From a virus (lineage: Duplodnaviria > Caudoviricetes): 36,542 nt of DNA. The stretch is taken from positions 1 to 36,542 of the IMG/VR virus record IMGVR_UViG_3300017553_000339. One strand, written 5' to 3'. The position numbers and the translations under genes were made by a program. Below the pieces are notes generated by a model that saw only the letters and a program-made list of their open reading frames with translations, was not told the origin of the DNA and did not search any database. Positions 3,060-36,542 of the stretch are shown piece after piece; positions within the stretch are counted from its first letter, which is position 1; each line of letters opens with the position of its first letter.

Positions 3060-3790
3060 GTATCCGCCTGCTTTCTGCCGCGTGGGATCTAGACATCCCC
3101 AGCACCGAAAAGATGGTGCTCATGTGTCTATGCGACCACGCCAATGATGATGGCGTATGCTGGCCGTCCGTGGAGACACTTTGCCGCAAGACCAGCAAAG
3201 GTGAGCGCACCGTGCAATCCGCCCTCAAGTGGTTGGCAGAAAACGAGTATTTCACCTTCCGGGATGGCGAACACAAGGCCCGGACCTATTATCTCGACCC
3301 CCGAAAAATCTGCGCCCCACCCCCGCAAAATCTGCACCCCGCAAAATCTGCACCCCGCAAATCTCGCACCCCGCAGATTTTGCAGGATACCCCCGCAGAT
3401 TCTGCGCCCCACCCCCGCAAATCTCGCACCCAAACCCCCATAGAACCACCAATGAACCTATCGGTAGCTAAAGCTACCTCTAAGCGCGCGCGAGAAAAAT
3501 CGGGTTTCATTTTGCCGGATTGGGTCCCGGCTGATGCTTGGGAGGCGTTCCTCGAAATGCGTCGGGGGATCCGAAAGCCTCTCACTGATCACGCCAAGCA
3601 ACTGGCTGTGAACAAACTCGGCCAACTGGCGCGGGACGGCCATCCACCCGGCGAAGTGCTCAACCAGAGCACGATGAACTGTTGGCAAGGACTTTTTGAG
3701 ATCAAGGAAAACAAGCATGGCAACCAATATTCAGGCCGCACATATCGGGACACCAGCGACGGCGGTAGGCCTAGCGGTTGGCTCGGTTGA
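3056..3790 (+). CDS. Phage replication initiator (N-terminal wHTH, lambda O-like layout)
   Basis: EKMVLMCLCDHANDDGVCWPSVETLCRKT..GERTVQSALKWL; internal iteron array; C-terminal LPDWVPADAWEAFLEMR domain. Confidence 0.9.
   Translation: MSIRLLSAAWDLDIPSTEKMVLMCLCDHANDDGVCWPSVETLCRKTSKGERTVQSALKWLAENEYFTFRDGEHKARTYYLDPRKICAPPPQNLHPAKSAPRKSRTPQILQDTPADSAPHPRKSRTQTPIEPPMNLSVAKATSKRAREKSGFILPDWVPADAWEAFLEMRRGIRKPLTDHAKQLAVNKLGQLARDGHPPGEVLNQSTMNCWQGLFEIKENKHGNQYSGRTYRDTSDGGRPSGWLG
3297..3433 (+). repeat. Iteron array, probable phage replication origin
   Basis: About 7 copies of a ~16-nt unit CCCCGCAAAATCTGCA inside the initiator gene. Exact 21-nt repeat TCTGCGCCCCACCCCCGCAAA at 3309 and 3401. Confidence 0.85.
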
Positions 3791-6419: not shown

Positions 6420-8530
6420 CCGTCCCTGACGTCGAATTGATGACGGGCGCGACCGTCGATAGCGAGACGAGTGTAGATATGTCGGGCCTTGCGACATTTC
6501 TACGCGATGAGGAGGATAAGTCTTATGACAGCGACTTGTCAGCTGAGCGAGCGAATGCGCTGGACTTCTACAACGGCGAACCTTTCGGCGATGAGGAAGA
6601 GGGCCGGTCGCAGGTCGTAACCCGTGACGTTGCAGAGGTTATTGATTATGCGACCGTGTCAATCCTGCGCACGATGGTTTCAGGCGACACGGTGGTTGAG
6701 TTCTGCCTTCCGGACAAAAATCTGGCGAAGGTTGTAGAGGCAGCGCTCAACCATGAATTTTTCCAAGGGCAGGATGGCTATCGCGTTCTGCATGACTGGA
6801 TCAAGGCAGGGCTGCTGGAAAAGACCGGCATGGTCAAGGTCTGCGTCGAGGAGCGCCCGCCTGTGCGACGTGAGGCTGTTCTATCGGCTGATGAGCTTGC
6901 CGCTGCGAACGTCGAGTTCATCGCCTCCGCGCCGATGGACGAGGCAGGCGAGCAGTGGTCTGTCGCGTGGCTGGAACCGCAGCCGCCGATCTTCCGCGAC
7001 TATTTCACCCCGAACGAGGAGGTGCTGATAGCGCAGGACGCGCGCGACCTTGACGACGACTGCCTCTATGTCGCGTTTCGGATGCCGCGCACGATCAGTC
7101 AGATTGCGGAAATGGGCTATGGCACAGATGGCCTCGAAAGCGATTACCCATACGATCAGGACGGCCTTGCGACGGCGCGCAATGGCTCTGTGCAAAATGG
7201 CTGGAACGATGGCGACTATCGCACTGGTGCGAACCGGCGCGTCTGGCTCCTCGAAGAATATGCGCGCTATGACCTCGATGGCGACGGGGTGGCAGAGCTT
7301 CTCAAGGTCCACCGCGTTGGCGGCCGCATCCTTGATGTCGAAGTGATCGATGAGCAGCCGGGCGTCGTGTTCTGCCCATTCCCCATGCCGGGCAGGATCG
7401 TCGGCCAGTCGCTTGCCGACAAGGTGATGGACATCCAGCGCACGCGCTCGGTCCTCATGCGTCAGGGTCTTGATAATCTCTATCAGGCCAACAAGCCGCG
7501 TTGGGCTGTGGCAGAAGGCGCGTTGGGCGATACAACTATTGATGATCTATTGGCCTCGCCAATAGCAGGCGGGATTATCCGCCATGCCGGAGCGACCCCG
7601 CCGCAGCCGATTAAACTGCCTGATGTTTCTGGCTCCTCGTTCCAAATGATGGAGGTGTTGGCCGGAGAGCGCGAGAGCCGCACCGGCATCACGCGGATGA
7701 ATCAGGGCCTCGACGCCGACGCGCTCAACAAGACTGCGACTGGCACGGCTATGATGCAAGCGGCAGGCCAGCAGATCGAAGATTACATGGCGCGCAATTT
7801 CGCTGAGGCGTTCGCGCGGCTCATGCTCAAGAAATATCGCCTCATGCGCCAGTTCGGCGGCCCGATGGAAGTTATGGTTGATGGCGAGCTTGTGCGGACA
7901 GACCCTCGCCAGTGGCCGGATGGCGTCAATGTGCGCGTGCGCGTTGGTCTTGGCACCGGGCGGAAAGATCAGCGGCTTCAGGCGCGCCTCACCCTCCTGC
8001 AACTGACGCAGGCGGTGGAGAGCAGCGGCGCCGACATGCAGTTGTTCACGCCGGAGAATATCTACAATCAGCTCGTCGGCGTCATCGAGGACAGTTCTTT
8101 GGGTGAAGTGAGCCAATATATCACCGACCCGAAAAACATGCCGCCCGAACCGGAAAAGCCGAACCCCGAAATGCTGAAAATGCAGGCGGACGCTCAGATT
8201 GAGGCGGCGAGGGTCGAGAACGACGCGAAAAAGGCTCAGGGCGAGCAGATGCTCAAGGCGCAGCAGATGCAGATCGACGCGCAGATGAAGCAGCAGAGCC
8301 TTGAATATGACCTGCAAGCCAAGCGTGAAAAAGCCGCGCTCGATGAGCAGTTGCAGCGCGAGAGGGCGACATTTGAAGCGCAGTTGGCCCTGCGCACGCA
8401 GGAGTTTGAAGAGCAGATGGCCCTGCGCCGGATGGCTTTCGAACAGGAGGTTGCGGCCAAGAAAGCTGCAAGCGACGAGGGCGACGGCGATTTGCCGAAG
8501 AAGCGCCCTGGTGGGAGGTTAGATGTTTAA
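6416..8530 (+). CDS. Portal protein (P22-like, C-terminal barrel coiled coil)
   Basis: Follows terL; RESRTGITR.NQG...LNKTATG motif; long Q/E/A-rich C-terminal helix. Confidence 0.92.
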   Translation: MTVPDVELMTGATVDSETSVDMSGLATFLRDEEDKSYDSDLSAERANALDFYNGEPFGDEEEGRSQVVTRDVAEVIDYATVSILRTMVSGDTVVEFCLPDKNLAKVVEAALNHEFFQGQDGYRVLHDWIKAGLLEKTGMVKVCVEERPPVRREAVLSADELAAANVEFIASAPMDEAGEQWSVAWLEPQPPIFRDYFTPNEEVLIAQDARDLDDDCLYVAFRMPRTISQIAEMGYGTDGLESDYPYDQDGLATARNGSVQNGWNDGDYRTGANRRVWLLEEYARYDLDGDGVAELLKVHRVGGRILDVEVIDEQPGVVFCPFPMPGRIVGQSLADKVMDIQRTRSVLMRQGLDNLYQANKPRWAVAEGALGDTTIDDLLASPIAGGIIRHAGATPPQPIKLPDVSGSSFQMMEVLAGERESRTGITRMNQGLDADALNKTATGTAMMQAAGQQIEDYMARNFAEAFARLMLKKYRLMRQFGGPMEVMVDGELVRTDPRQWPDGVNVRVRVGLGTGRKDQRLQARLTLLQLTQAVESSGADMQLFTPENIYNQLVGVIEDSSLGEVSQYITDPKNMPPEPEKPNPEMLKMQADAQIEAARVENDAKKAQGEQMLKAQQMQIDAQMKQQSLEYDLQAKREKAALDEQLQRERATFEAQLALRTQEFEEQMALRRMAFEQEVAAKKAASDEGDGDLPKKRPGGRLDV

Positions 8531-9080
8531 AAAGAAACTGCCATCGCAAGATCATCTTTGCCAGCTTCTGGATTACGATCCAGCCTCCGGCATCCTGACT
8601 TGGCGGGGACGACCTTTGTCGATGTTTTCGGCTGTGAATGGCCGATCCGCTCAAAACTGCCAAAAAGTCTGGAACGCAAAATATGCGGGCACTCAGGCAG
8701 GCGCAAAGCGAACCTATATCGTCCTCAAGATCGAGGGCGAGAGTTATCTGGCTCATCGGCTAATTTGGAAAATGGTAACCGGCAACGACCCTGACGAAAT
8801 CGACCATCGCGACCGCAACAAGCACAACAACCGGTGGGGCAATCTCCGTGACACAAGTCATGCAGTCAATATGCGGAATAAGCCTATCAACCGCCTGAAT
8901 GCGAGTGGGTATAAACATATCCACTGGTCCGCAAAAACAGACCGGTGGGTGGTGCAGTTATCAATTCCGGGGAGAGGGCAAAGGCAGGTCGCTTGGACTC
9001 GCACGCTCGCAGAGGCGGTAGCCGCGCGGAACGCTGCTTATCAAAAATTCGGCTACGATATAAGGATGGAAGCGGCATGA
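8523..9080 (+). CDS. HNH homing endonuclease (AP2-like C-terminus)
   Basis: LDYDPASG.LTW...AHRLIWKM...EIDHRDRNKHNNRWGNLR...N.SGYK; more AT-rich than flanks. Confidence 0.9.
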   Translation: MFKKKLPSQDHLCQLLDYDPASGILTWRGRPLSMFSAVNGRSAQNCQKVWNAKYAGTQAGAKRTYIVLKIEGESYLAHRLIWKMVTGNDPDEIDHRDRNKHNNRWGNLRDTSHAVNMRNKPINRLNASGYKHIHWSAKTDRWVVQLSIPGRGQRQVAWTRTLAEAVAARNAAYQKFGYDIRMEAA

Positions 9081-16494: not shown

Positions 16495-18947
16495 TGGCAC
16501 AGAACTGGTGGGACGATCAGCCGGTCGCTTCTCAGGCTCCGACGCAGCAGCCCCCGCGCGCTGGCCCGCGACCGATCACGCTGACGCCGGGCGACCCGAA
16601 CGCGCAGCGGAAAAGTGATCTGGATATTCAGGGGAAGCAGATCGGCGTCCAGACTGATGCCGCCACCGCGCCTTATGCTGGGCCGCAGGCGGCGGCAGAC
16701 CTCGAAGCGCGCCGGATCGCCAATGAGAAGGCCAGACGCGAGTTGGAGGCGCAGCAGGAAGGATCATCGCCTGCGCAGCGCAAAGCGCAGCTTGATCTTG
16801 GTAATGACGAGATTATGGCCGCGATCCAGCGTGCGCGAAACGACCTCAAAAAAGGCGGGTCTGCGGGCTACTGGGCACGCCTGCCGGAAATGCTACAGCC
16901 GCAATCGGCTATCAACCTTGGCGGATCGCTGAACACTATCGCCTCGCGCCTGACCCTCGACAAGCTATCAGAATTGAAATCTCAATCAGCGGTTGGCGCC
17001 TCCGGCCTTGGTGCGCTGTCTGAGCGTGAGGGCGCATTGCTGCGCGATAGCGTCGCTGCGCTTGGGCAAACGCAAGACCCGCAGCGCCTGCTTGAAAACC
17101 TGAACGAGGTGGAAAATCACTATCGGAACATGATGATCCTCTCGAATGGCGAGGACTTCCGAAACCCTGAGGTCGCGAAGAAATACGGCATCGCCGCCAA
17201 TCCGCCTGATTGGGGTATGGCAGGATCCGCCCGCGAACAGGGCGGCGAACTGACTGCCGAGGGGAAATGGCAGGATGATCCGGCGCTGCGTGGAGTGAAC
17301 AGCCGCGTTGCGCAGATGATCCAGCAGGGCGCTTCGGCTGGCGATGTGCGCGCCTACCTTGATAGCGTGCAGCCGGGCCTTGGTGAACGCGCGGAGCAGG
17401 TGGACGAGGTTATCCGCTATCATCAGCAGCACCCGCAGGCGACCCCGCAAGTCAATCTTGAGCGGCAGTGGGTGCCTTCTGACCCGGCCACACAGTTTAT
17501 AGGTGGCGCTGGCATGTCCCCCGTGGGCCAATATTTCATTGGTGCGGGTGACGCGCTTTCAGCGGGAACGTTGGACAACTGGACATCCAGTCCTGCCGCC
17601 ACCCGCGCCGCGATGGCGGCGAATGCTGAGGCAAACCCTACCTCTGATCTTTTGGGGAACCTTACCGGCAACGTCCTCGGCACCGCAGGCGCTGGCAAGG
17701 TGCTTGGCATGTTCGGACGCGGTTCCGCTCTGGCGCGCAACCCTGCCCTTGCCGATCTGGTCTATGGGGCGGCCTATGGAGCAGGAAGCGCGGACGAAGG
17801 CAGTCGCACCATGGGCGCGCTTACCGGCGCGGCTGAAAACTATCTGGGGGCGAAGGCGGGGCAGAAGGTGGGGAGCGCCATCGGGTCATCCATGACAGGC
17901 GTTACCGACCCCGCTGTCCAGTACCTCGCCAAATTGGGCGTGCGTATGACGCCGGGACAAATGGCAGGCGGGCGGCTCAAGTCGATGGAGGACCGCTGGA
18001 CGGGCAATGCAGGCCTTGGCGACAAGATCAACACATTGCGCAGGCGATCTATTGAGGACTGGAACCGCGCGGCCTTCGATGAAGCTTATGCGCCTGTGGG
18101 ATATTCGCCATCCTCCATTGGGGAAAGTGGTGTTTCGCAGGGGCGGCGCGCAGTTTCCGACTTCTACAATCGTGCGCTCGATCCAGTTGCCGTGAACGCG
18201 GACCCGCAATTCATGGGGGCTATGTCGAACATCAAGCAGGCTGGCGCAGGCATCCCCGGCGAGCTTGCGGGCGAAATTGATAACACGCTGAAAAGCCGGG
18301 TTGGCCCTTATATCGACCCGAATACGGGCGAGATTACCGGGCGAAATTATCAGGCTATCCGTCAGGGTGTACAGTCTGATATGTCCGCCTTTTCAGGTAA
18401 GCCTCGCTATGATCTCTATCGCGATCAGGCTGGCAATATCCTTGGTGAACTGGACGACCTTTTCCGCCGCCAATCGCCCGGAACCGCAGAGGCTCTTGGG
18501 CAGGCCAATCAAGGGTGGCGCAACAACAGCATCCTTGAGGACGCCACCATTGCCGCCCGGAACAATGACGGCCTTTTCATGCCCTCCCAGCTTGGCAATG
18601 CCGCCGTATCGAATGCGAAAAAATATGGCGGCAAGGGTCTTGCGGCTTCGGAAGATCGTCCGTTCTTCGAGCTACAGCGAGCTGGGCAAAATGTGCTGCC
18701 CTCGAAGGTCCCTGACAGCGGAACCGCTGGCCGCGCACGCGAGGGGAGTATAACCGCGAAGGCGACGGGGGCGGCGCTCGATGCCCTGCGCTCCCCGCTC
18801 TATTCCGAGACGCTGGAACCGCTCTTCCGGGCTGGCCTGCTGGAACGCCCGCAGGCGCTTATCGACGCGGGCGAACTTTTGAAGCAGTATAGCAGGCTTC
18901 CGGGCATGTTTGGCGGCGCAGCAGCGCTTCAATATTTCGGGCAGTAG
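16494..18947 (+). CDS. Large ejection protein 3 (P22 gp16 position)
   Basis: 817 aa, G/A-rich hydrophobic centre, TPGQ motif; last gene of the ejection cluster. Confidence 0.75.
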   Translation: MAQNWWDDQPVASQAPTQQPPRAGPRPITLTPGDPNAQRKSDLDIQGKQIGVQTDAATAPYAGPQAAADLEARRIANEKARRELEAQQEGSSPAQRKAQLDLGNDEIMAAIQRARNDLKKGGSAGYWARLPEMLQPQSAINLGGSLNTIASRLTLDKLSELKSQSAVGASGLGALSEREGALLRDSVAALGQTQDPQRLLENLNEVENHYRNMMILSNGEDFRNPEVAKKYGIAANPPDWGMAGSAREQGGELTAEGKWQDDPALRGVNSRVAQMIQQGASAGDVRAYLDSVQPGLGERAEQVDEVIRYHQQHPQATPQVNLERQWVPSDPATQFIGGAGMSPVGQYFIGAGDALSAGTLDNWTSSPAATRAAMAANAEANPTSDLLGNLTGNVLGTAGAGKVLGMFGRGSALARNPALADLVYGAAYGAGSADEGSRTMGALTGAAENYLGAKAGQKVGSAIGSSMTGVTDPAVQYLAKLGVRMTPGQMAGGRLKSMEDRWTGNAGLGDKINTLRRRSIEDWNRAAFDEAYAPVGYSPSSIGESGVSQGRRAVSDFYNRALDPVAVNADPQFMGAMSNIKQAGAGIPGELAGEIDNTLKSRVGPYIDPNTGEITGRNYQAIRQGVQSDMSAFSGKPRYDLYRDQAGNILGELDDLFRRQSPGTAEALGQANQGWRNNSILEDATIAARNNDGLFMPSQLGNAAVSNAKKYGGKGLAASEDRPFFELQRAGQNVLPSKVPDSGTAGRAREGSITAKATGAALDALRSPLYSETLEPLFRAGLLERPQALIDAGELLKQYSRLPGMFGGAAALQYFGQ

Positions 18948-19207
18948 GGGTAGCACCATAAACCCAACGCGCCCCCGAAAACCCAAAGGACGCCAGCCAG
19001 CGTGACCGCCACGAACGCCCACCACGACCAGACAACAGCCCGTTCGCCCCACAGCAGGCGCGCGTCCGTGATGAACCCGGCGTTGCGCACATGGTGGGGC
19101 AGGCCCTCGCGCCTCGCCTTCCATTCAAGATATTTGGGCTTGAAGCCCCGCCAGGCACCCATGAGCAACGCAGCGCAGAACAGGGTGAGTATCTTGGAAG
19201 TGGTCAT
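18929..19207 (-). CDS. Small two-TM membrane protein (moron; possible superinfection exclusion)
   Basis: Two hydrophobic Trp-rich segments; opposite strand to the late operon. Confidence 0.6.
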   Translation of the reverse strand: MTTSKILTLFCAALLMGAWRGFKPKYLEWKARREGLPHHVRNAGFITDARLLWGERAVVWSWWAFVAVTLAGVLWVFGGALGLWCYPYCPKY

Positions 19208-19254: not shown

Positions 19255-19283
19255 TTGCCGGGATTCCTCGGATTCGCTATAAA
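19255..19283 (+). promoter_or_regulatory. Sigma70-type promoter driving an RNA antisense to the small peptide gene
   Basis: TTGCCG-N17-TATAAA with GC before the -10; no credible + strand gene downstream. Confidence 0.65.
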
Positions 19284-19289
19284 GCGCAT

Positions 19290-19480
19290 AGCCGGTCGTG
19301 GAATTCGGCAGACGCCCCTAAGACGCCTGCCGAACCCGTTAGCTGAGAGTGAAGGCGAGTATGGCAAGCGCTCTAATGATTGCTGCCACGTCGATCTCAA
19401 CGCTCAACTTTTTCGTGTTCCAAGAAAACATGGTTGCTTCCTCGGGCCACGACCGGTCGCAGCCTATGAGGGTTGCGATT
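19290..19480 (+). ncRNA. Putative antisense (antitoxin) RNA, ~190 nt
   Basis: Lies between the promoter at 19255-19283 and hairpin GTCGCAGCC-TATGAG-GGTTGCGAT (19456-19479). Fully covers the peptide ORF and its RBS. Confidence 0.45.
19339..19431 (-). CDS. 30-aa hydrophobic peptide, candidate type I toxin
   Basis: MFSWNTKKLSVEIDVAAIIRALAILAFTLS; RBS GAGGAAG just upstream of ATG; strong hairpin (19304-19334) after the stop. Confidence 0.6.
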   Translation of the reverse strand: MFSWNTKKLSVEIDVAAIIRALAILAFTLS

Positions 19481-19715
19481 ACGCGTTCCTTGCAACCAAT
19501 ATGGCCGGTTGCGGCAAACCGCCTCACCCTTCCTGCTCTAGAAACGATCCGGGCGATGCTCGCTTGACACCTTTGCCGTGATCCAATTCCTTTCGGATGA
19601 GTGGACCGACGCAGAGCGAGCGTGCGACCTCTCAAGGTGAGTTTGTCAAAAGCCCTCAATCGAATCTCCCGCCCATCATGCAGAACGGTCGGAGAGAGTC
19701 GAGTCAGACCCCCCT

Positions 19716-20003
19716 TCAAGCCGCCAGTAGCGGCTCTATATCCGCGATATCACCACTGTCGCTGGTCAACAGATCATAGTGCGCTTGCAGGTTCAGCCAG
19801 AACTCCGGTGTTGTCCCAAGCGCCCGCGACAGTCGCAGCGCGGTATCGGTGGTAACAGAGGTCCTCTCCTCGCACAGCCGCTCGATGCGGGTGCGGGGGA
19901 CATGGATATGCTTCGCCAGCTTCCCGGCGCTGATGCCCATTTCCTCAAGAAACTCCGCTTTCAGAATTTCGCCGGGGTGGACCGGCACTTGCAACATAGT
20001 CAT
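19716..20003 (-). CDS. higA: HigA antitoxin
   Basis: PVHPGEILKAEFLE...TALRLSRALGTTPEFWLNLQAHYDL. Confidence 0.95.
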   Translation of the reverse strand: MTMLQVPVHPGEILKAEFLEEMGISAGKLAKHIHVPRTRIERLCEERTSVTTDTALRLSRALGTTPEFWLNLQAHYDLLTSDSGDIADIEPLLAA

Positions 20004-20014
20004 GTCGGCTCCTT

Positions 20015-20296
20015 TCAATGATAGTCCACTATCTCAACATTTTCCGGGCCTTTCTCGGTCCAGACAAAACAGATGCGCCATTGCCCGTTGATCCGGATCG
20101 AATGCTGCCCTACCCGGTCACCGGAAAGCGCTTCAAGTCGGTTCGCTGGCGGCGACCGCAAGTCATCCAGCGTCACCGCCGCCTCCAACATGGCGACCTT
20201 GCGAACGGCGACCCGGAACAGATCGGACGGGAAGCCCTTGCCCGGCTTGCCGGATAGAACCTGTTCGATCAACTTCCCTTTGGCGCTCTGTATCAT
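20015..20296 (-). CDS. higB: HigB (RelE/ParE family) toxin
   Basis: MIQS...LDDLRSPPANRLEALSGDRVGQHSIRINGQWRICFVW...VEIVDYH. Confidence 0.95.
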   Translation of the reverse strand: MIQSAKGKLIEQVLSGKPGKGFPSDLFRVAVRKVAMLEAAVTLDDLRSPPANRLEALSGDRVGQHSIRINGQWRICFVWTEKGPENVEIVDYH

Positions 20297-24489: not shown

Positions 24490-25631
24490 GCATCGGGCTT
24501 GGCGTTTATGGCGGCTTCTCTCGTGGCGCCGCCGACCGATGGGCACGCGCGACCGGTATCGCAACGCTGCAATATCCACTCGCCGCGCCCCGCAAGATCA
24601 TGATCGCGGGCACGAGCATCGATGCCGGTTACAACACGGCCTATCCGTCCGGCAACCAGCAGGGCTATAAATGCGGCCCGGTTCGTCGCCTTCGCGATGC
24701 CCTGCGCGCGCGGGGCTTCTATGCGCAGGACGAGTCCTTTGCCGGGACTATGGGATATACCACCGCTGCCTCCTTTCAGTCGTTCGATCCCCGTTTCCAA
24801 AACGGCAGCGGGTGGGAGTATTCTGGGGTTTCCGGCGCAACGTGGTCGATCTTGCAGAACTCGACCACCACCAACGCATTCACCTATACGCCGGATGACA
24901 CGACCCAGACCTTCACGGTCTGGGTCCGCTCGGTCACTGGCACCGGCTCGGTTACGGTCAGTTGCGGTGCTGCGACCAAGACGGTGAGCATCCAGCTTGC
25001 GACAACGGATTTTGTCGCCATCACGCTGGGCGAGAGCGAAGGTGTAACACTCGGCCAGAACACCTATTCGGTTGCCCGCGTGTCTGGCACCATTCAGGTG
25101 GCGTTCTGCTGGGCGCGCAATGCTCGCCTGCCGGCCTATCAGTTGCTCAACTGTTCGTCATCCGGCGCTCGCATGCAGCACATTGCCAACGCCAACGATC
25201 TGGCGCGGCCGCTCTATTTCCCTGAGCAGATTTTGACGGCTGGCGATGAATACTGGATCGCCATGGGACCGAACGATTGGCGCGATAATGCCGTCCCATC
25301 CCCGGTCGAAAACCTTCCGACCTATCGGGCGAACATGGAAGCGCTGCTCGATCGGCGCGCTGCGAACGATATCAAGAGCAGGGTCATCATTCCGGCTCGC
25401 ACATCCATTCTAGCCGCCTCCATCGCCAACCAGGACCTGTATAACGCAGCGATCCGCGAGGTCGCGGCGTCTCGGGGGGTGCCAGTGTTCGATTTCAAGG
25501 ATCGTTGGGGTGAGCATGCGGATGCTCTTGCGGCGGGGTTCATGAACGCAGATCCGGACTATTTCCACCCGATCTGGCGTGGTGCGGGGGATATCAGCCA
25601 GGTTTACGCAGCGCTGACGCTCGCAGCCTAG
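24486..25631 (+). CDS. SGNH/GDSL hydrolase with inserted beta-sandwich domain
   Basis: Blocks IAGTSI, NCSSSG, MGPNDW, DYFHP. Confidence 0.85.
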   Translation: MSIGLGVYGGFSRGAADRWARATGIATLQYPLAAPRKIMIAGTSIDAGYNTAYPSGNQQGYKCGPVRRLRDALRARGFYAQDESFAGTMGYTTAASFQSFDPRFQNGSGWEYSGVSGATWSILQNSTTTNAFTYTPDDTTQTFTVWVRSVTGTGSVTVSCGAATKTVSIQLATTDFVAITLGESEGVTLGQNTYSVARVSGTIQVAFCWARNARLPAYQLLNCSSSGARMQHIANANDLARPLYFPEQILTAGDEYWIAMGPNDWRDNAVPSPVENLPTYRANMEALLDRRAANDIKSRVIIPARTSILAASIANQDLYNAAIREVAASRGVPVFDFKDRWGEHADALAAGFMNADPDYFHPIWRGAGDISQVYAALTLAA

Positions 25632-31655: not shown

Positions 31656-32585
31656 ATGAACCCCGATCCTAATTTGGTTACAGAAATACGCGACGTTTCG
31701 CGTGCGATGGCACGTGAGTGGGGCTTCATGGGTGGCGGTTTCGCGGGCACCGAGCTTTCGCCATCCGCGGTCCATGCCCTGATCGAGATTGAGAAAGGCG
31801 GCTTAACCGCCCGCGATCTTGGAAGCCGCCTTCGTCTCGAAAAGTCGAGCGTCAGCCGGATGCTGCGCAAGCTCATCGAGTCCGGCGACGTAAACGAGAC
31901 AGCCGATGGTCGCCTCAAACGACTCTCACTTACGCCACAGGGACAGGCGCGCGTGGCCGCGATCCATGCCTTTGCGAGCGATCAGGTCGTCGCGGCCCTT
32001 CGCCATCTGAAGCAGGGCCAGGAACGTGCCGTCTTGGACGGGCTTCGCCTCTATGCCGATGCACTCGGCGCGACCAGCGAACCGCAAGCGCCTCCCGCCA
32101 TCAACATTGTCCGCGGCTATCAGACCGGCATCATCGCGCGGGTCACGGAAATGCACGCGCTCTACTATGCGAGGGAGACAGGTTTCGGGCAACGCTTCGA
32201 GAGCGTCATCGCAGGGGGTCTTGCAGATCTCTGCAACCGGCTCGAAAGTCCCCGGAACGAAATCTGGGCGGCAATGCAGGGTGACGAAATCGTCGGTTCG
32301 GTTTCGGTCGATGGCGAGGATATGGGAGAGGGTATAGCGCACCTTCGCTGCTTCATCGTCAGCGACCGGGTGCGTGGCGGAGGTGCAGGGCGTAAGCTGC
32401 TTTCGGCTGCCATTGCCTTCGCAGATGAGAGCGGCTTTGCCGAAACCCATCTCTGGACTTTCAAGGGGCTTTCAGCGGCACGTCACCTCTACGAGAGTTT
32501 TGGGTTTGTCTGTGTTGAAGAAAGGCTCGGCCAACAATGGGGCAAGGAAGTGATGGAGCAACGGTTCGTCAGGTTGCGCCCATGA
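31656..32585 (+). CDS. MarR wHTH-GNAT acetyltransferase fusion (cargo)
   Basis: N-terminal L..RLRLEKSSVSRMLRKL wHTH; C-terminal VRGGGAGRKLL and LWT..GL.AARHLYE.FGF GNAT motifs. Confidence 0.9.
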   Translation: MNPDPNLVTEIRDVSRAMAREWGFMGGGFAGTELSPSAVHALIEIEKGGLTARDLGSRLRLEKSSVSRMLRKLIESGDVNETADGRLKRLSLTPQGQARVAAIHAFASDQVVAALRHLKQGQERAVLDGLRLYADALGATSEPQAPPAINIVRGYQTGIIARVTEMHALYYARETGFGQRFESVIAGGLADLCNRLESPRNEIWAAMQGDEIVGSVSVDGEDMGEGIAHLRCFIVSDRVRGGGAGRKLLSAAIAFADESGFAETHLWTFKGLSAARHLYESFGFVCVEERLGQQWGKEVMEQRFVRLRP

Positions 32586-32637
32586 CCACAATTTGGCGCG
32601 AGCGGGCGCAAGCAAGCTGAACCCGCGAGGTCAGACC

Positions 32638-32779
32638 TGTTACATGGGCCGGTATTGGCAAAATGTGTAACAACGGCAACATCGGTAACAACGAGTGCTT
32701 AAAAAGGGTCTAATTATCAAACAACTGTTACCGTTGTTACCGTTGTTACATGCTGTGGTCATAGGGGGCGAATGTAACA
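32638..32779. repeat. Inverted iteron arrays flanking an AT-rich spacer; probable origin of the element
   Basis: GTAACAACG-type unit x3 (32667-32693), AT-rich spacer, CGTTGTTAC-type unit x3 (32723-32749); outer TGTTACA (32638) and TGTAACA (32773). Confidence 0.8.
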
Positions 32780-32782
32780 GCT

Positions 32783-34138
32783 CTACCCGTCGCGCTTCCG
32801 GTAAAGCACTTTGTTCTGCGGGCCAGCCTCAATGAGCACACCGTAATTGAACGCCGCCATCCTTAGCTGGTCGTCCACCTTACCCCATTCGCGCCGACTG
32901 ATCTCGCGCCCCATCAGTTCGTGGACCTGCTCACGGGTGACAGGCTGGCCGGTCGTGTAAACTGCCTGCACCAACTCGTTCACCGCGTCACCCACGACGC
33001 TCCGCTTCTTGCTCCCGCCACCTTCGCCGTCCCCGTCCTCTTTCGGTTTGCGGGTGGCGTCCTCGAACACCTCCATTGACTCGTCCTCCCCCCAAACCGT
33101 CAGCCCAATGTTGACGCGGACCAGCACGGAGTTGGCACCCTCCGCGCGACGGTGCAGCGTATGGACCGGCTCGGTGTTGTAGAGCGTCGTGAAGCGCGTG
33201 GTCAGGTTCGTCTTAGCCACCCGCATCACGTTGGCGTGCTCCTCCCGAATGTCGCGGGCATGGACGAACGACAGGCGCGGCGAATTGGTCCACGCGGAAG
33301 CACCCGCCACGGTGTCGGCAAAGTATTCGTGCTTCCCCTTGTTCGAGTGACCGATAATGGCGATGGTGACGTCATACCGCTCCGCCAGCACTTGCAGATA
33401 GGCGAGCAGTTTCTTCACCGAGGCATCGTCGTTCGGGCTTTCCCCCTTGCGCCAGCCCGTCAGCCCAACCGCCGTGTCCAGCACGACCAGCTTGAGCGGG
33501 CGCGGCGGGATATACATGGTGTCGGCACCGCGCTTCGCCTTCTGGATTGCCGTTTCCAGATGTTCGTAAACATCAAAGTTGGACCCGGTAACGCGCCCAT
33601 GGGTATCGGACTTGTTCGCAACGGCAGTGACGACAAACAACGTGCCCTCATCGCCGCCGATCTTCATATGCCGCACCCTGATCCAATCGTTCGGTTCCTC
33701 CACGCTGATCCAGAGGGTCGATGCCTCCCCGCTGATCTGTGCGCCCAGCGTGGCTACCAACGACGACTTGGCAGTGCTGCCACGTCCGAAGAAGCCAACG
33801 ACGCACCCGCTCGGCAAGAAGGGGTCAACGAGGTATTGCAGGGAAACGGTGGTGGTATCGCTGCTCATTGCGACCTCCATTGTGATTGCGTCCATCGGTG
33901 CCATCGGAGGCGGGATCGCAACGCCAGCCTTCAACTGCGCCGCTGCCAGCTTCGCTTCCTCTGCCCGCCGACTATCCTCCATGATCTTCGCAAGGCGCTC
34001 TGTGTCCTCGCGCTTCTGCTCGGGGGTGCGAAAGTCCATATCGGGGGTGCGAGGCGGCAGCGCACCGGGCATCGCGTGCCAGTCGATACCGCCATCGGCA
34101 TCCTTGGGCGCTTCCCACGACGGCGTCTGCTCAACCAT
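32783..34138 (-). CDS. AAA-family ATPase / RepA-like (SF4) helicase
   Basis: YLVDPFLP.G....FFGRGSTAKS Walker A; WISVEE; LVVLDT Walker B; IIGHSNK; GASAW..SPR. Confidence 0.85.
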   Translation of the reverse strand: MVEQTPSWEAPKDADGGIDWHAMPGALPPRTPDMDFRTPEQKREDTERLAKIMEDSRRAEEAKLAAAQLKAGVAIPPPMAPMDAITMEVAMSSDTTTVSLQYLVDPFLPSGCVVGFFGRGSTAKSSLVATLGAQISGEASTLWISVEEPNDWIRVRHMKIGGDEGTLFVVTAVANKSDTHGRVTGSNFDVYEHLETAIQKAKRGADTMYIPPRPLKLVVLDTAVGLTGWRKGESPNDDASVKKLLAYLQVLAERYDVTIAIIGHSNKGKHEYFADTVAGASAWTNSPRLSFVHARDIREEHANVMRVAKTNLTTRFTTLYNTEPVHTLHRRAEGANSVLVRVNIGLTVWGEDESMEVFEDATRKPKEDGDGEGGGSKKRSVVGDAVNELVQAVYTTGQPVTREQVHELMGREISRREWGKVDDQLRMAAFNYGVLIEAGPQNKVLYRKRDG

Positions 34139-34342
34139 GATGACCCTCCCCGCCGGGGGTCGGGATAGTAAAGGATTTTGCCCAATTCCCCTCTACTCTC
34201 GGCAAATTTTTACGCGAAGCAAAGTATTTTGCAAAAACATTCGGGGATTGCGGACCCACGGCGAGGCCCTGTAAATTGCTGCTGTTCACGTCGATACTCC
34301 GGGCGGCAGGGGTGGCTACCTGCCGCCTACTCATGAGGGGAA

Positions 34343-34591
34343 TCAGGCTGCTTCGCTCGTGCTGTGACGAGCGCCGGAGGCGAGCCAGCGCAGAACATCG
34401 AGTTCCGCATACCAACAGCGGCGCGTTCCGGGCGGGCTGAAATAGCGCGGCCCCTCGCCACGGAAGCGATACTGGTTCATGGTGTTGGGATGGACGCCGA
34501 GAATTTCGGCAACCTCGTCACCGCTAAGCGGACGACGCTTTGGGGTATAGGCGAACAGCTCGCAGAGCTGGTCAAAGGACATTTCACTCAT
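34343..34591 (-). CDS. AlpA/excisionase-like HTH protein
   Basis: LS..EVAEILGVHPNTM.QYR.RGEGPRY.....R.WY...DV..WL. Confidence 0.85.
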   Translation of the reverse strand: MSEMSFDQLCELFAYTPKRRPLSGDEVAEILGVHPNTMNQYRFRGEGPRYFSPPGTRRCWYAELDVLRWLASGARHSTSEAA

Positions 34592-34780
34592 CGGTCAAGC
34601 CTCTGTCGGCCCGACGATTAGGTCGAACAATGACAGCCGCGACCGCGTGAGCGGTGGATTCGGTTTCAGCGCAGATGCGCCGGAAGCGACCGATGGCCCG
34701 CTCTACCAGAGATAAAGCGGGCCGGTAACGTAGCTATACACTAAACAACCACGCCTGTATTTGATAAAACGCTGTCTAAA

Positions 34781-34975
34781 CTACCCCCCACTCAGCACAA
34801 GCTTCAAATGTTCTTCGACGCTTTCCCGAATGCATTTGAGAACAACATTGTATGATACTTCTTCACAATATGTCTCTTCCATCACGAATGAGACATATTG
34901 CTTGGCTGTATCGAAGATCACCCAAATATCATTTTCGTCGAAGAGCGGCGTGTCGTTGAAAGTTTCAAGCGCCAT
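34781..34975 (-). CDS. Small acidic AT-rich hypothetical protein
   Basis: RBS TAAGGAG; more AT-rich than flanks. Confidence 0.45.
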   Translation of the reverse strand: MALETFNDTPLFDENDIWVIFDTAKQYVSFVMEETYCEEVSYNVVLKCIRESVEEHLKLVLSGG

Positions 34976-35267
34976 AACGGCGGCACTCCTTAAAAGTGCC
35001 CTGTTCGCCAGACAATAAAATAGCGGCGGATCAGGGCGTTTTTGGCACCATGATCGCCGCTTCCGCTATGCGCATATCGCAGCCAGCGACATGCACGGTA
35101 GTCCTCTAGGGGACTGGCTCGCTTTCTTGATAGCTGATTCGGGAACGGTTGAAAAGAGACCTTCGCTACAAGGCCCGCACAAGCGCGATCGCTGTGCTGC
35201 CGCCCCTACTGCCGCGCCGCACGCTGGCCGGTGCTGCTACCCCGGCGCACGGCGCCCAGCGCGAGCA

Positions 35268-36542
35268 TCACGCTCGCTGCGGCAGCGCCACCACGTTCCC
35301 GCCGGTAGCCTTCGCCCGCGCAATCGCTCCCTGTTGCTCAATCCAGTCACCAATCGTCTGCACCTTCGGTTGCAGGTATTGGAGGCGCTGGGTGCGGAGG
35401 TAGTGTTTCGCGGTGACGCCCTTCGGAACATGGTTCGTCAGAAGCTCAATCTCGTGCAGGGCGATCCCGCATGTGGCCACACCGACGGAAACGAACGTGC
35501 GCCGCAGGTCGTGGGCGCTCAGGTGCAGGCCGGCAACCTTGCTGACCCGTTCCAACGGAGCGCGGGTATCTTGCACATGGCCCGCTTTGCTGCGTGATGG
35601 GAATACGAACTTGCTGGCGTTTTTATCGTCATCAGCAGGCTTGCGCGCTTTGAGCAGTTCGACAGCAACGGACGATAGAGGAATCCAAACCGGGTTGGCG
35701 TTCTTCGGGTCCGGCAGGTGGAACCATCCCTCGTCCAAATTGACGCGATCCCATGTGAGCATGGCACCCTCGTTGCGGCGGGCACCTGTCAGCAGAAGGA
35801 AGCGGACCAGATCGACGCCAGCCCGGGCATCGTCATCCCGTGCGGTAATGCGCATTTCTGCAAGCGCGTGCCACACCTCGCCGACCCTTTTCTCGTCAAT
35901 GTCACGGGTGCGGGGCTTTAGCTCAAGCCAGTCGTCCTTGAGCGCAAGGACCGGGTTGTGCGCAATGAGCGGCGACCCGTCAGCGCGGCGGTATTGGCGG
36001 CTGGCGAAATTGATGAGGGTGCGCAGTGTGGTCATGCTGAGGTTGGCGCTGCCGATAGCGGGCTTCCCGCGCATCCCCTTGGTCGTCATCTCGCGATAGC
36101 GCTTGCGCACGTCGTCCTCGGTGATGGACGCTATGGGCTTGTTTTCCCACGCTGCCAGAACCGTCTTTATCTGGCGGTCCATCTCGTTGCGGGTCGCCTC
36201 TTTCAGTTTGCCAGGTCTTGCGAAATAGGCATCCGCGACCGTGCGAAGCGTCACCTTCGCTGCCTCGTCTTGCTTCTTGGCCTCGCGCGGGTCGATTCCC
36301 TCGCGCATGTCCTGCAACACCTTCTGCGCCCGCTCCCGCGCTTTGGCTTCCGTCAGCGTGCCATAGGGACCAAGGGTGAACTGGATAGATTTGCCCAGCA
36401 CCCGCCCCATTACCACGAACACGCGCTTGCCCTGCGGTGATACTCGAAGGGCATATCCTTTGACTGAGTCATCCCAGTGCATCGCATAGCCGGACGTAGG
36501 TGCCTGCACCTTATCCACGAAAGCCTTTGTCAGCTTCACCAT
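35268..36542 (-). CDS. int: Tyrosine recombinase / integrase (P4-like, arm-binding N-terminus)
   Basis: KLTKAFVD...WD...GYALRVSPQGKRVF; LLTGARRNE; HDLRRT; NH...VTAKHY catalytic residues. Confidence 0.95.
   Translation of the reverse strand: MVKLTKAFVDKVQAPTSGYAMHWDDSVKGYALRVSPQGKRVFVVMGRVLGKSIQFTLGPYGTLTEAKARERAQKVLQDMREGIDPREAKKQDEAAKVTLRTVADAYFARPGKLKEATRNEMDRQIKTVLAAWENKPIASITEDDVRKRYREMTTKGMRGKPAIGSANLSMTTLRTLINFASRQYRRADGSPLIAHNPVLALKDDWLELKPRTRDIDEKRVGEVWHALAEMRITARDDDARAGVDLVRFLLLTGARRNEGAMLTWDRVNLDEGWFHLPDPKNANPVWIPLSSVAVELLKARKPADDDKNASKFVFPSRSKAGHVQDTRAPLERVSKVAGLHLSAHDLRRTFVSVGVATCGIALHEIELLTNHVPKGVTAKHYLRTQRLQYLQPKVQTIGDWIEQQGAIARAKATGGNVVALPQRA

What the first reader, a model, noticed from the sequence alone, without database searches (positions are those of the whole stretch)
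19255..19520. Candidate new type I toxin-antitoxin locus (30-aa peptide plus fully overlapping antisense RNA)
Seen: (i) a minus-strand ORF MFSWNTKKLSVEIDVAAIIRALAILAFTLS with RBS GAGGAAG; (ii) a perfect 10-bp inverted repeat CCGGTCGTGG (19292-19301) / CCACGACCGG (19447-19456) that pairs the mRNA 5' UTR with its 3' end, plus CCCG/CGGG closing next to the RBS and stop; (iii) a long hairpin at 19304-19334 after the stop; (iv) a near-consensus promoter TTGCCG-N17-TATAAA on the opposite strand, with a hairpin at 19456-19479 that pairs fully (with G-U) only on that strand; (v) three GCAACC copies and one GGTTGC upstream of the ATG, allowing alternative pairing at the start codon. Known: 5'-3' long-range pairing occurs in hok and aapA mRNAs, and a fully overlapping antisense RNA defines ibs/sib. 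I do not recognise this peptide family, and type I systems are poorly described in Alphaproteobacteria.
Basis: partly seen in the sequence, partly recalled or inferred. Interest (0 to 1): 0.8.

Follow-up and report, generated by a model that had tools for sequence, protein, structure and literature searches.

The report
New locked-mRNA peptide family in Alphaproteobacteria
A prophage carries an unannotated gene for a 30-residue hydrophobic peptide that belongs to a family matching no protein or RNA library entry, spread over alphaproteobacterial phages and plasmids; its messenger is predicted to hide its own ribosome-binding site, so it is likely a self-poisoning toxin of the type I kind, but no antidote RNA shared by the family was found.

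Summary
The sequence features are all present. The locus is one member of a conserved, unannotated family: 17 DNA loci (16 intact, 1 frameshifted) plus 2 database peptides, from Sphingomonadaceae-type, rhizobial, Azospirillum and metagenomic phages, plasmids and islands. Members share a 25-32-residue peptide (alternating N-terminal strand, [IV][DN][VIA]A, hydrophobic helix), a promoter-like site 245-310 nt upstream (13 of 17), covarying leader hairpins, two alternative hairpins predicted to hide the Shine-Dalgarno site, and a strong hairpin right after the stop. There is no Pfam, NCBIfam, PHROG or Rfam match. This is the anatomy of a type I toxin mRNA. Toxicity is untested. The 10-bp 5'-3' stem has a comparable helix in only one other of 15 loci tested, and no antisense promoter position is shared (at most 4 of 17 loci per bin). 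No RNA data cover the locus. The leader model also hits 21 of 151 Rhizobiaceae-group genomes as a roughly 350-450-nt, single-hit element that has lost the peptide but keeps promoter, core hairpin and terminator, which suggests a domesticated non-coding RNA. Verdict: probable new type I toxin-like family, antitoxin unidentified.

The parts
19339..19431 (-). 30-aa peptide ORF (polar/alternating N-terminal half, IDVA motif, hydrophobic C-terminal helix)
   Evidence: family alignment; codon-position pattern; model with helix 15-29
19675..19702 (-). Predicted mRNA promoter P1: -35 TCGACT (19702-19697), 16 nt, -10 CATGAT (19680-19675); start site inferred near 19669
   Evidence: equivalent site at -310..-246 in 13 of 17 loci, (scan rule tuned after seeing the data)
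19524..19556 (-). Leader hairpin A
   Evidence: compensatory changes across 15 loci
19485..19519 (-). Leader hairpin B with A/U-rich loop (holds one GCAACC and the GGTTGC)
19458..19477 (-). Leader hairpin C (A-C mismatch on the mRNA strand, G-U on the opposite strand); excludes hairpin D
19440..19471 (-). Hairpin D: anti-SD CCUC pairs with SD GAGG before the start codon is transcribed (predicted early lock)
19420..19445 (-). SD/AUG hairpin: 11 pairs, three G-U, SD paired with codons 1-4 (predicted late lock)
19301..19337 (-). Hairpin directly after the stop codon (terminator-like in the family; no U-run in this copy)
19292..19301 (.). 3' arm of the 10-bp inverted repeat (partner 19447-19456); not a family feature
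19255..19283 (+). Convergent promoter-like site TTGCCG-17-TATAAA; candidate antisense promoter of this copy only
19716..20296 (-). higB-higA type II TA pair directly upstream; unrelated neighbour in the same cassette
18929..19207 (-). 92-aa putative membrane protein directly downstream; no family

Best explanation
The locus is a conserved small gene whose mRNA is predicted to lock its own ribosome-binding site and which likely encodes a membrane-inserting, type I-like toxin, with the antidote RNA still unidentified. Shown: the ORF, its family, the hydrophobic helix pattern, compensatory changes in the leader stems, and the hairpin after the stop. Inferred steps: (1) P1 makes an mRNA of about 370 nt with a leader of about 240 nt. 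(2) While it is being made, hairpin D pairs an upstream CCU(C/U) with the SD. (3) Once the first codons emerge, the RNA refolds to hairpin C plus the SD/AUG hairpin, so the SD passes from one lock to the next. (4) A rare event, such as processing or a further refolding, opens the SD. (5) The peptide inserts into the inner membrane and stops growth or kills. (6) An unstable antisense RNA, most likely overlapping hairpin C and the SD, normally removes the open form. In this copy it could come from the convergent promoter at 19255-19283. The module would stabilise the prophage or plasmid that carries it, or abort infection.
For: Family of 17 DNA loci and 2 peptides, 23-50% identical to the window peptide among the 15 aligned. 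Pairwise differences by codon position are 0.50/0.35/0.62, and the best 15-residue hydropathy is 1.7-2.9 in 15 of 15. A hairpin of -23.7 to -33.1 kcal/mol follows the stop in 15 of 15 loci tested. Leader structure: 16 of 27 pairs change on both sides against 7.8 +/- 1.7 in shuffles (0 of 500), with 89.8% of cells paired against 36-46% when slid. Hairpin D folds over the SD in 17 of 17 and is more stable on the mRNA strand in 16 of 17. The SD is 33% or less unpaired in the full transcript in 13 of 17. Two members came from a model of the leader plus the first four codons and carry the full peptide (L359, L362); L362 is AT-rich and keeps both conformers with different letters. Contexts are mobile: prophage here, phage genes around L169, L180, L183 and L184 (my reading of the translations), an integrase beside L085, tRNA neighbours at L106 and L337. 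Two successive SD-hiding hairpins are the mechanism described for aapA3 (PMC6733600, abstract and section titles), and the sizes fit the T1TAdb definition (PMC8594479, passages).
Against: No toxicity, translation or transcript data: the one RNA run found does not cover the locus. No shared antisense promoter and no separately encoded complementary partner in the flanks. In the window itself the early lock is weak: the SD is 0.64 unpaired before the AUG with the full leader and 0.99 with a 75-nt leader. Only 7 of 17 loci beat the shuffled-leader control at 2 of 30 or better. The C-terminal helix is about 15 residues, short for a bilayer. The structure tested was derived from the same alignment, and most rows were found with a pattern that fixed hairpin C letters. 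The 21 peptide-less Rhizobiaceae hits show that the RNA core can be kept without the peptide.
Confidence: 0.58

Rival explanations
1. One reading: an ibs/sib-like system in which a ~190-nt RNA from 19290 spans the whole ORF and ends at hairpin C, and the mRNA is closed by a 5'-3' stem. It may hold for this copy alone.
For: Best promoter-like site at the locus. Its start would fall at the repeat arm, and the RNA folds (z -4.0). Hairpin C is more stable on the antisense strand in 12 of 17 loci, including L337, L359 and L362, which were found without the pattern.
Against: Promoter position and stem are not conserved. There is no U-run after hairpin C here. G-U pairs in the other stems favour the mRNA strand (about 29 G-U against 7 A-C, counted by hand). 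The A-C mismatch can be explained by the second pairing of the 3' arm in hairpin D.
Confidence: 0.22
2. The structured RNA is the functional unit (a base-pairing or protein-binding RNA) and the peptide is a regulated accessory product, making this a dual-function RNA rather than an addiction module.
For: 21 of 151 Rhizobiaceae-group genomes hold the core without an intact family ORF. In 17 parsed copies, promoter, central hairpin and terminator letters are strongly conserved. No antitoxin found.
Against: Mobile members keep the peptide's frame, length and hydropathy and two SD locks. Peptide-less copies look derived: ORF relics in L338, L339 and L349-L351 (read by eye).
Confidence: 0.12
3. A non-toxic prophage membrane peptide, for example a superinfection-exclusion or host-modulating factor, under translational control.
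For: It sits on the opposite strand between a DNA-injection-like gene and a tail-fibre gene, beside a small membrane protein. An earlier AI note (e1-466091) describes an unrelated peptide in such a place.
Against: Relatives occur in many other contexts, including plasmids and tRNA islands. The related prophage L064 shows no such peptide at this junction. Exclusion proteins need steady expression, not a double lock (established knowledge).
Confidence: 0.08

Closest known systems
aapA/IsoA of Helicobacter pylori (AapA1, AapA3)
   Same: 30-aa peptide; SD hidden first by a 5' UTR hairpin and then by a hairpin inside the ORF (PMC6733600 abstract and section titles; PMC5416894 search listing only).
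   Different: No sequence match reported by Rfam, Pfam or NCBIfam. Leader is about 240-300 nt. No conserved antisense promoter found, and 5'-3' pairing is not conserved here.
hok/Sok and ldr/Rdl
   Same: Structured leader on mobile elements; an antisense RNA lying 5' of the ORF inside the mRNA (PMC8594479 passage) would fit hairpin C's antisense bias.
   Different: No family match; no conserved 5'-3' fold-back; antisense RNA not located.
ibs/Sib
   Same: The window copy has a convergent promoter that would give an RNA spanning the whole ORF, as PMC8594479 describes for Sib.
   Different: That arrangement is not shared by the relatives, and the peptide is longer with a different pattern (Ibs length recalled).
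timP/TimR, tisB/IstR-1, dinQ/AgrB, shoB/OhsC, zor/Orz
   Same: Long, structured leader with alternative conformations controlling the SD (timP: PMC13000454 abstract).
   Different: Their antitoxins are encoded 5' of the mRNA without overlap (PMC8594479 passage). No such complementary partner was found within 1.2 kb upstream or 1 kb downstream, and in the window higA abuts the promoter.

Membership tests
Type I toxin-antitoxin system (class) | mRNA of 150-400 nt coding for a 20-60-aa protein | tested here: met
   ORFs of 25-32 aa; window mRNA inferred at about 370 nt from the predicted promoter to the 3' hairpin; ends are predicted, not measured
Type I toxin-antitoxin system (class) | Hydrophobic, membrane-type peptide | tested here: met
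   Best 15-residue hydropathy 1.7-2.9 in 15 of 15; helix 15-29, pLDDT 82-92 in the last 20 residues
Type I toxin-antitoxin system (class) | SD sequestered by mRNA structure | tested here: met
   Predicted only; 13 of 17 at 33% or less unpaired in the full transcript
Type I toxin-antitoxin system (class) | Cognate antisense RNA that pairs with the mRNA | tested here: inconclusive
   No shared antisense promoter, no flanking partner, no RNA cover; hairpin C favours the antisense strand in 12 of 17
Type I toxin-antitoxin system (class) | Peptide is toxic and the RNA neutralises it | not testable with these tools
   needs expression experiments
Ibs/Sib | Antisense RNA spans the entire ORF in the family | tested here: not met
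   Downstream antisense promoter not conserved; possible in the window copy only
Any described type I family (Hok, Ldr, Ibs, TisB, ShoB, Zor, DinQ, AapA, Fst and others) | Sequence match of toxin or antitoxin to library models | tested here: not met
   Pfam: 0 credible of 15 peptides (one at E 0.18). NCBIfam 0 of 15. PHROGs 0 of 6 peptides. Rfam: none in the window, only tRNAs in 14 member loci, none in 20 further loci. Not every known family has a model, and T1TAdb itself could not be searched.
hok- and aapA-type mRNAs | Conserved 5'-3' long-range pairing | tested here: not met
   Helix of 8 bp or more in 2 of 15 loci; only leader -40..-12 against the 3' flank was tested

The most novel reading that the evidence does not exclude
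A type I toxin family native to Alphaproteobacteria whose toxin is held down mainly in cis by a relay of RNA locks, without a fixed antisense gene, and whose messenger has been domesticated in a Rhizobiaceae lineage: it lost the peptide, gained a canonical promoter with a DnaA-box-like site, and became a ~400-nt chromosomal non-coding RNA with a conserved core, giving a visible path from selfish toxin mRNA to host regulatory RNA.
Probability: 0.25. Interest if true: 0.85.

Novelty: new variant of a known kind. Interest (0 to 1): 0.66.

Why it matters
Fozo et al. 2010 (PMC2887945, passage) noted that type I pairs had been characterised only in Firmicutes and Gammaproteobacteria, and Coray et al. 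2017 (PMC5367252, passages) asked whether their narrow range reflects search bias. A family crossing several alphaproteobacterial orders on phages and plasmids, missed by annotation, speaks to that question and has testable members in Sinorhizobium meliloti Ak57 and Azospirillum sp. TSH58. The peptide-less chromosomal relatives add a large RNA with no Rfam match and a possible case of a toxin mRNA turning into a non-coding RNA.

Tried and rejected
Direct similarity searches found no relatives: blastn of the locus in plasmids and phages, tblastn in plasmids, exact peptide patterns in viral contigs (one search gave 9 hits, all rejected), protein search (self only), phmmer on 1.84 billion representatives (self plus three repeat artefacts), and the ESM Atlas (best 0.81, uninformative). 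Genome searches gave only weak matches: DNA in 301 Sphingomonadaceae-group genomes (all short; not inspected one by one), the peptide in 301 genomes of the order of G004 (6 hits rejected), in 301 Sphingomonadaceae-group genomes (9 hits in longer frames) and in 5 single genomes. A loose pattern matched 45 of 301 Alphaproteobacteria genomes; 30 loci were fetched and none passed the ORF filter. Same-junction search in related prophages gave nothing. Plasmid higBA relatives lack the peptide locus, so the two modules are not linked. Sequencing runs: RNA run X8 does not cover the locus; DNA run X10 holds one identical 151-nt piece; neither is evidence on expression. Near-invariance of hairpin C letters and its YUNR-like loop were not used as evidence, because the search patterns fixed those letters and UUCG fits YUNR anyway. 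CGCAA read as an antisense -35, and segment S read as an antisense promoter, were rejected by eye on alignment A6: no -10 at 16-18 nt. A retron reading of the inverted repeat was rejected: no reverse transcriptase among 45 window proteins scanned. Model hits L301, L360, L361 and L363 were dropped as chance. No complex prediction was run.

Full report
Context. The window is a virus record with terminase, SU10-type portal, capsid and adaptor genes, GapR and an integrase. The host is probably a sphingomonad: the best terminase relative is in Sphingomonas (73%) and the adjacent higBA is 79% identical to Sphingobium and Novosphingobium plasmid copies. The locus lies in a minus-strand cassette, higB-higA-peptide-92-aa membrane ORF, between a DNA-injection-like gene and a tail-fibre gene. 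The plasmid higBA copies diverge right after the higA stop, so the peptide locus is a separate module.

Observation. All five features are present. The minus strand folds with z -6.3 and the plus strand with z -4.0. The SD/AUG hairpin and the hairpin after the stop contain three and five G-U pairs on the minus strand, which points to that strand as the folded one. The 10-bp inverted repeat alone is not rare: 16 such repeats lie in the window.

Finding relatives. Ordinary searches failed (see Tried and rejected). A pattern combining SD, start and a loose peptide motif gave 24 viral loci, of which 1 (L085) was a clear relative sharing leader letters that were not in the pattern. Blastn from it gave Azospirillum sp. 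TSH58 (L106). A leader-plus-peptide pattern gave 76 viral loci, 5 passing the small-ORF filter (L085 again, L169, L180, L183, L184), and 121 metagenome loci, 6 accepted (L216, L252, L257, L287, L292, L322). That scan stopped after 20 of 64 parts, so the count is a lower bound. Blastn from L180 added Rhizobium leguminosarum WSM1325 (L336, frameshifted just after the start) and Sinorhizobium meliloti Ak57 (L337). A profile search added two peptides without DNA. A covariance model of the leader plus four codons found one intact member among 151 Sphingomonadaceae-group genomes (L359) and one among 151 Alphaproteobacteria (L362). Total: 17 DNA loci with the window, and 2 peptides. No protein-coding annotation covers the ORF in the three named records; in Ak57 it carries only a spurious resistance label.

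The peptide. Members are 25-32 aa with alternating hydrophobic and polar residues, then [IV][DN][VIA]A, then a hydrophobic stretch. Among 15 loci, pairwise differences are 0.50, 0.35 and 0.62 at codon positions 1-3, as in a coding sequence, and the best 15-residue hydropathy is 1.7-2.9. The DVA-type motif was part of the search patterns, so its conservation is partly built in. AlphaFold gives a helix at 15-29 and a low-confidence N-terminus. There is no credible match in Pfam, NCBIfam or PHROGs, and none in Rfam apart from neighbouring tRNAs.

The mRNA. A promoter-like site lies 246-310 nt upstream of the start in 13 of 17 loci, against 0-5 in other 65-nt bins. The rule was tuned after I had seen the sites, so this is a strong hint and not a test. 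In the window it is TCGACT-16-CATGAT at 19702-19675. Leader hairpins A and B carry many compensatory changes. For A, B and the anti-SD hairpin D together, 16 of 27 pairs change on both sides against 7.8 in shuffles, and slid controls pair at 36-46% against 89.8%; the structure came from the same alignment and the rows are related, so this overstates significance. Hairpin D closes over the SD in 17 of 17 loci and favours the mRNA strand in 16. It excludes hairpin C. In several members the predicted fold switches from D to C plus an SD/AUG hairpin once 30 nt of ORF are added (clear in L085, L106, L292, L336, L337, L362). Against this, only 7 of 17 loci beat the shuffled-leader control at 2 of 30 or better, and in the window the SD is 0.64 unpaired before the AUG appears. 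A strong hairpin follows the stop in 15 of 15 loci tested, mostly with a U-rich tail, which the window lacks.

The antitoxin. The window has a good convergent promoter-like site, but only L184 has one at the same place and no bin holds antisense sites in more than 4 of 17 loci. The 5'-3' stem reaches 8 bp or more in 2 of 15 loci. No separately encoded complementary RNA shows in the flanks (several contigs were too short). The one family-level hint is that hairpin C is more stable on the antisense strand in 12 of 17 loci, including three found without the pattern; the double role of its 3' arm could explain this too. No RNA run covers the locus. The antitoxin is therefore unidentified.

Peptide-less relatives. 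The same model hit 21 of 151 genomes of the family of G004 (a Rhizobiaceae-group genome), once each. None has an intact family ORF; L338, L339 and L349-L351 show relics, read by eye. Most lie among ordinary chromosomal-type genes in varied order (my reading of the translations); L357 and L358 are more divergent. In 17 of 18 copies given to the parser the element is 344-452 nt with a conserved 5' stem, central hairpin and terminator, and 15 of the 17 have TCCACAGG about 55-60 nt upstream, which resembles a DnaA box (consensus recalled). Rfam has no match in 19 of them.

Mechanism. The best reading is a type I-like toxin mRNA kept silent by two successive SD locks (0.58). Gene, family and covariation are shown. 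Transcription, the switch, toxicity and an antisense RNA are inferred.

Literature seen. PMC6733600 and PMC13000454: abstract and section titles. PMC8594479, PMC2887945 and PMC5367252: passages. PMC5416894: search listing only. Nine full-text searches listed no paper that, by title or abstract start, describes this family or the peptide-less RNA; the library lacks most subscription papers. I did not open the supplements of Fozo 2010, which list more than 2000 candidate ORFs, or T1TAdb itself, so some members may already be listed there as candidates.

Verdict. Real, conserved and unannotated. It works like a type I toxin mRNA but belongs to no family I could test. New variant of a known kind; interest 0.66.

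Noticed in passing
L338-L358 (match at about 1501-1650 of each locus): Peptide-less, roughly 350-450-nt relatives of the mRNA in 21 of 151 Rhizobiaceae-group genomes, with their own promoter, a DnaA-box-like upstream site, a highly conserved central hairpin and terminator, and no Rfam match; candidate large non-coding RNA deserving its own study.
   Followed up: partly
L169, L292, L322 (about -300..-260 against -107..-90 from the start codon); partly L359: The promoter's spacer end and -10 region is a perfect 14-17-nt inverted copy of the 3' arm of leader hairpin A, with letters changing together between loci. The window lacks it (rank 8 of 16). Unexplained: feedback of the RNA on its promoter, a longer antisense RNA closing on itself, or a second start site.
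   Followed up: partly
L337:2222-2314 (CP090106.1 1178592-1178500): The S. meliloti Ak57 peptide ORF is labelled 'PDC beta-lactamase, 100% identity' by PLSDB's resistance prediction, a spurious label on a 30-codon ORF.
   Followed up: no
window 18929-19207 (-): 92-aa tryptophan-rich putative membrane protein with only two relatives found, convergent with the injection-like gene; position suggests superinfection exclusion, untested.
   Followed up: partly
window 8523-9080 (+): HNH endonuclease directly after the portal gene.
   Followed up: no
window 32581-32760 (-), 3241-3510, 24841-25020: The strongest folding windows of the record; the first is an intergenic stretch with TAACAACGG repeats and their complements beside a second integrase-AAA element, possibly an origin.
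   Followed up: no
window 34280-34590 (-) and 32783-36542: A second small mobile element (integrase, excisionase-like small ORF, AAA_25 protein) is fused to the right end of the prophage record.
   Followed up: no
L292 and L359, upstream of the promoter: Both copies lie next to an ORF that reads like an IS1595-family transposase (recognised from the translation or sequence; family name recalled).
   Followed up: no
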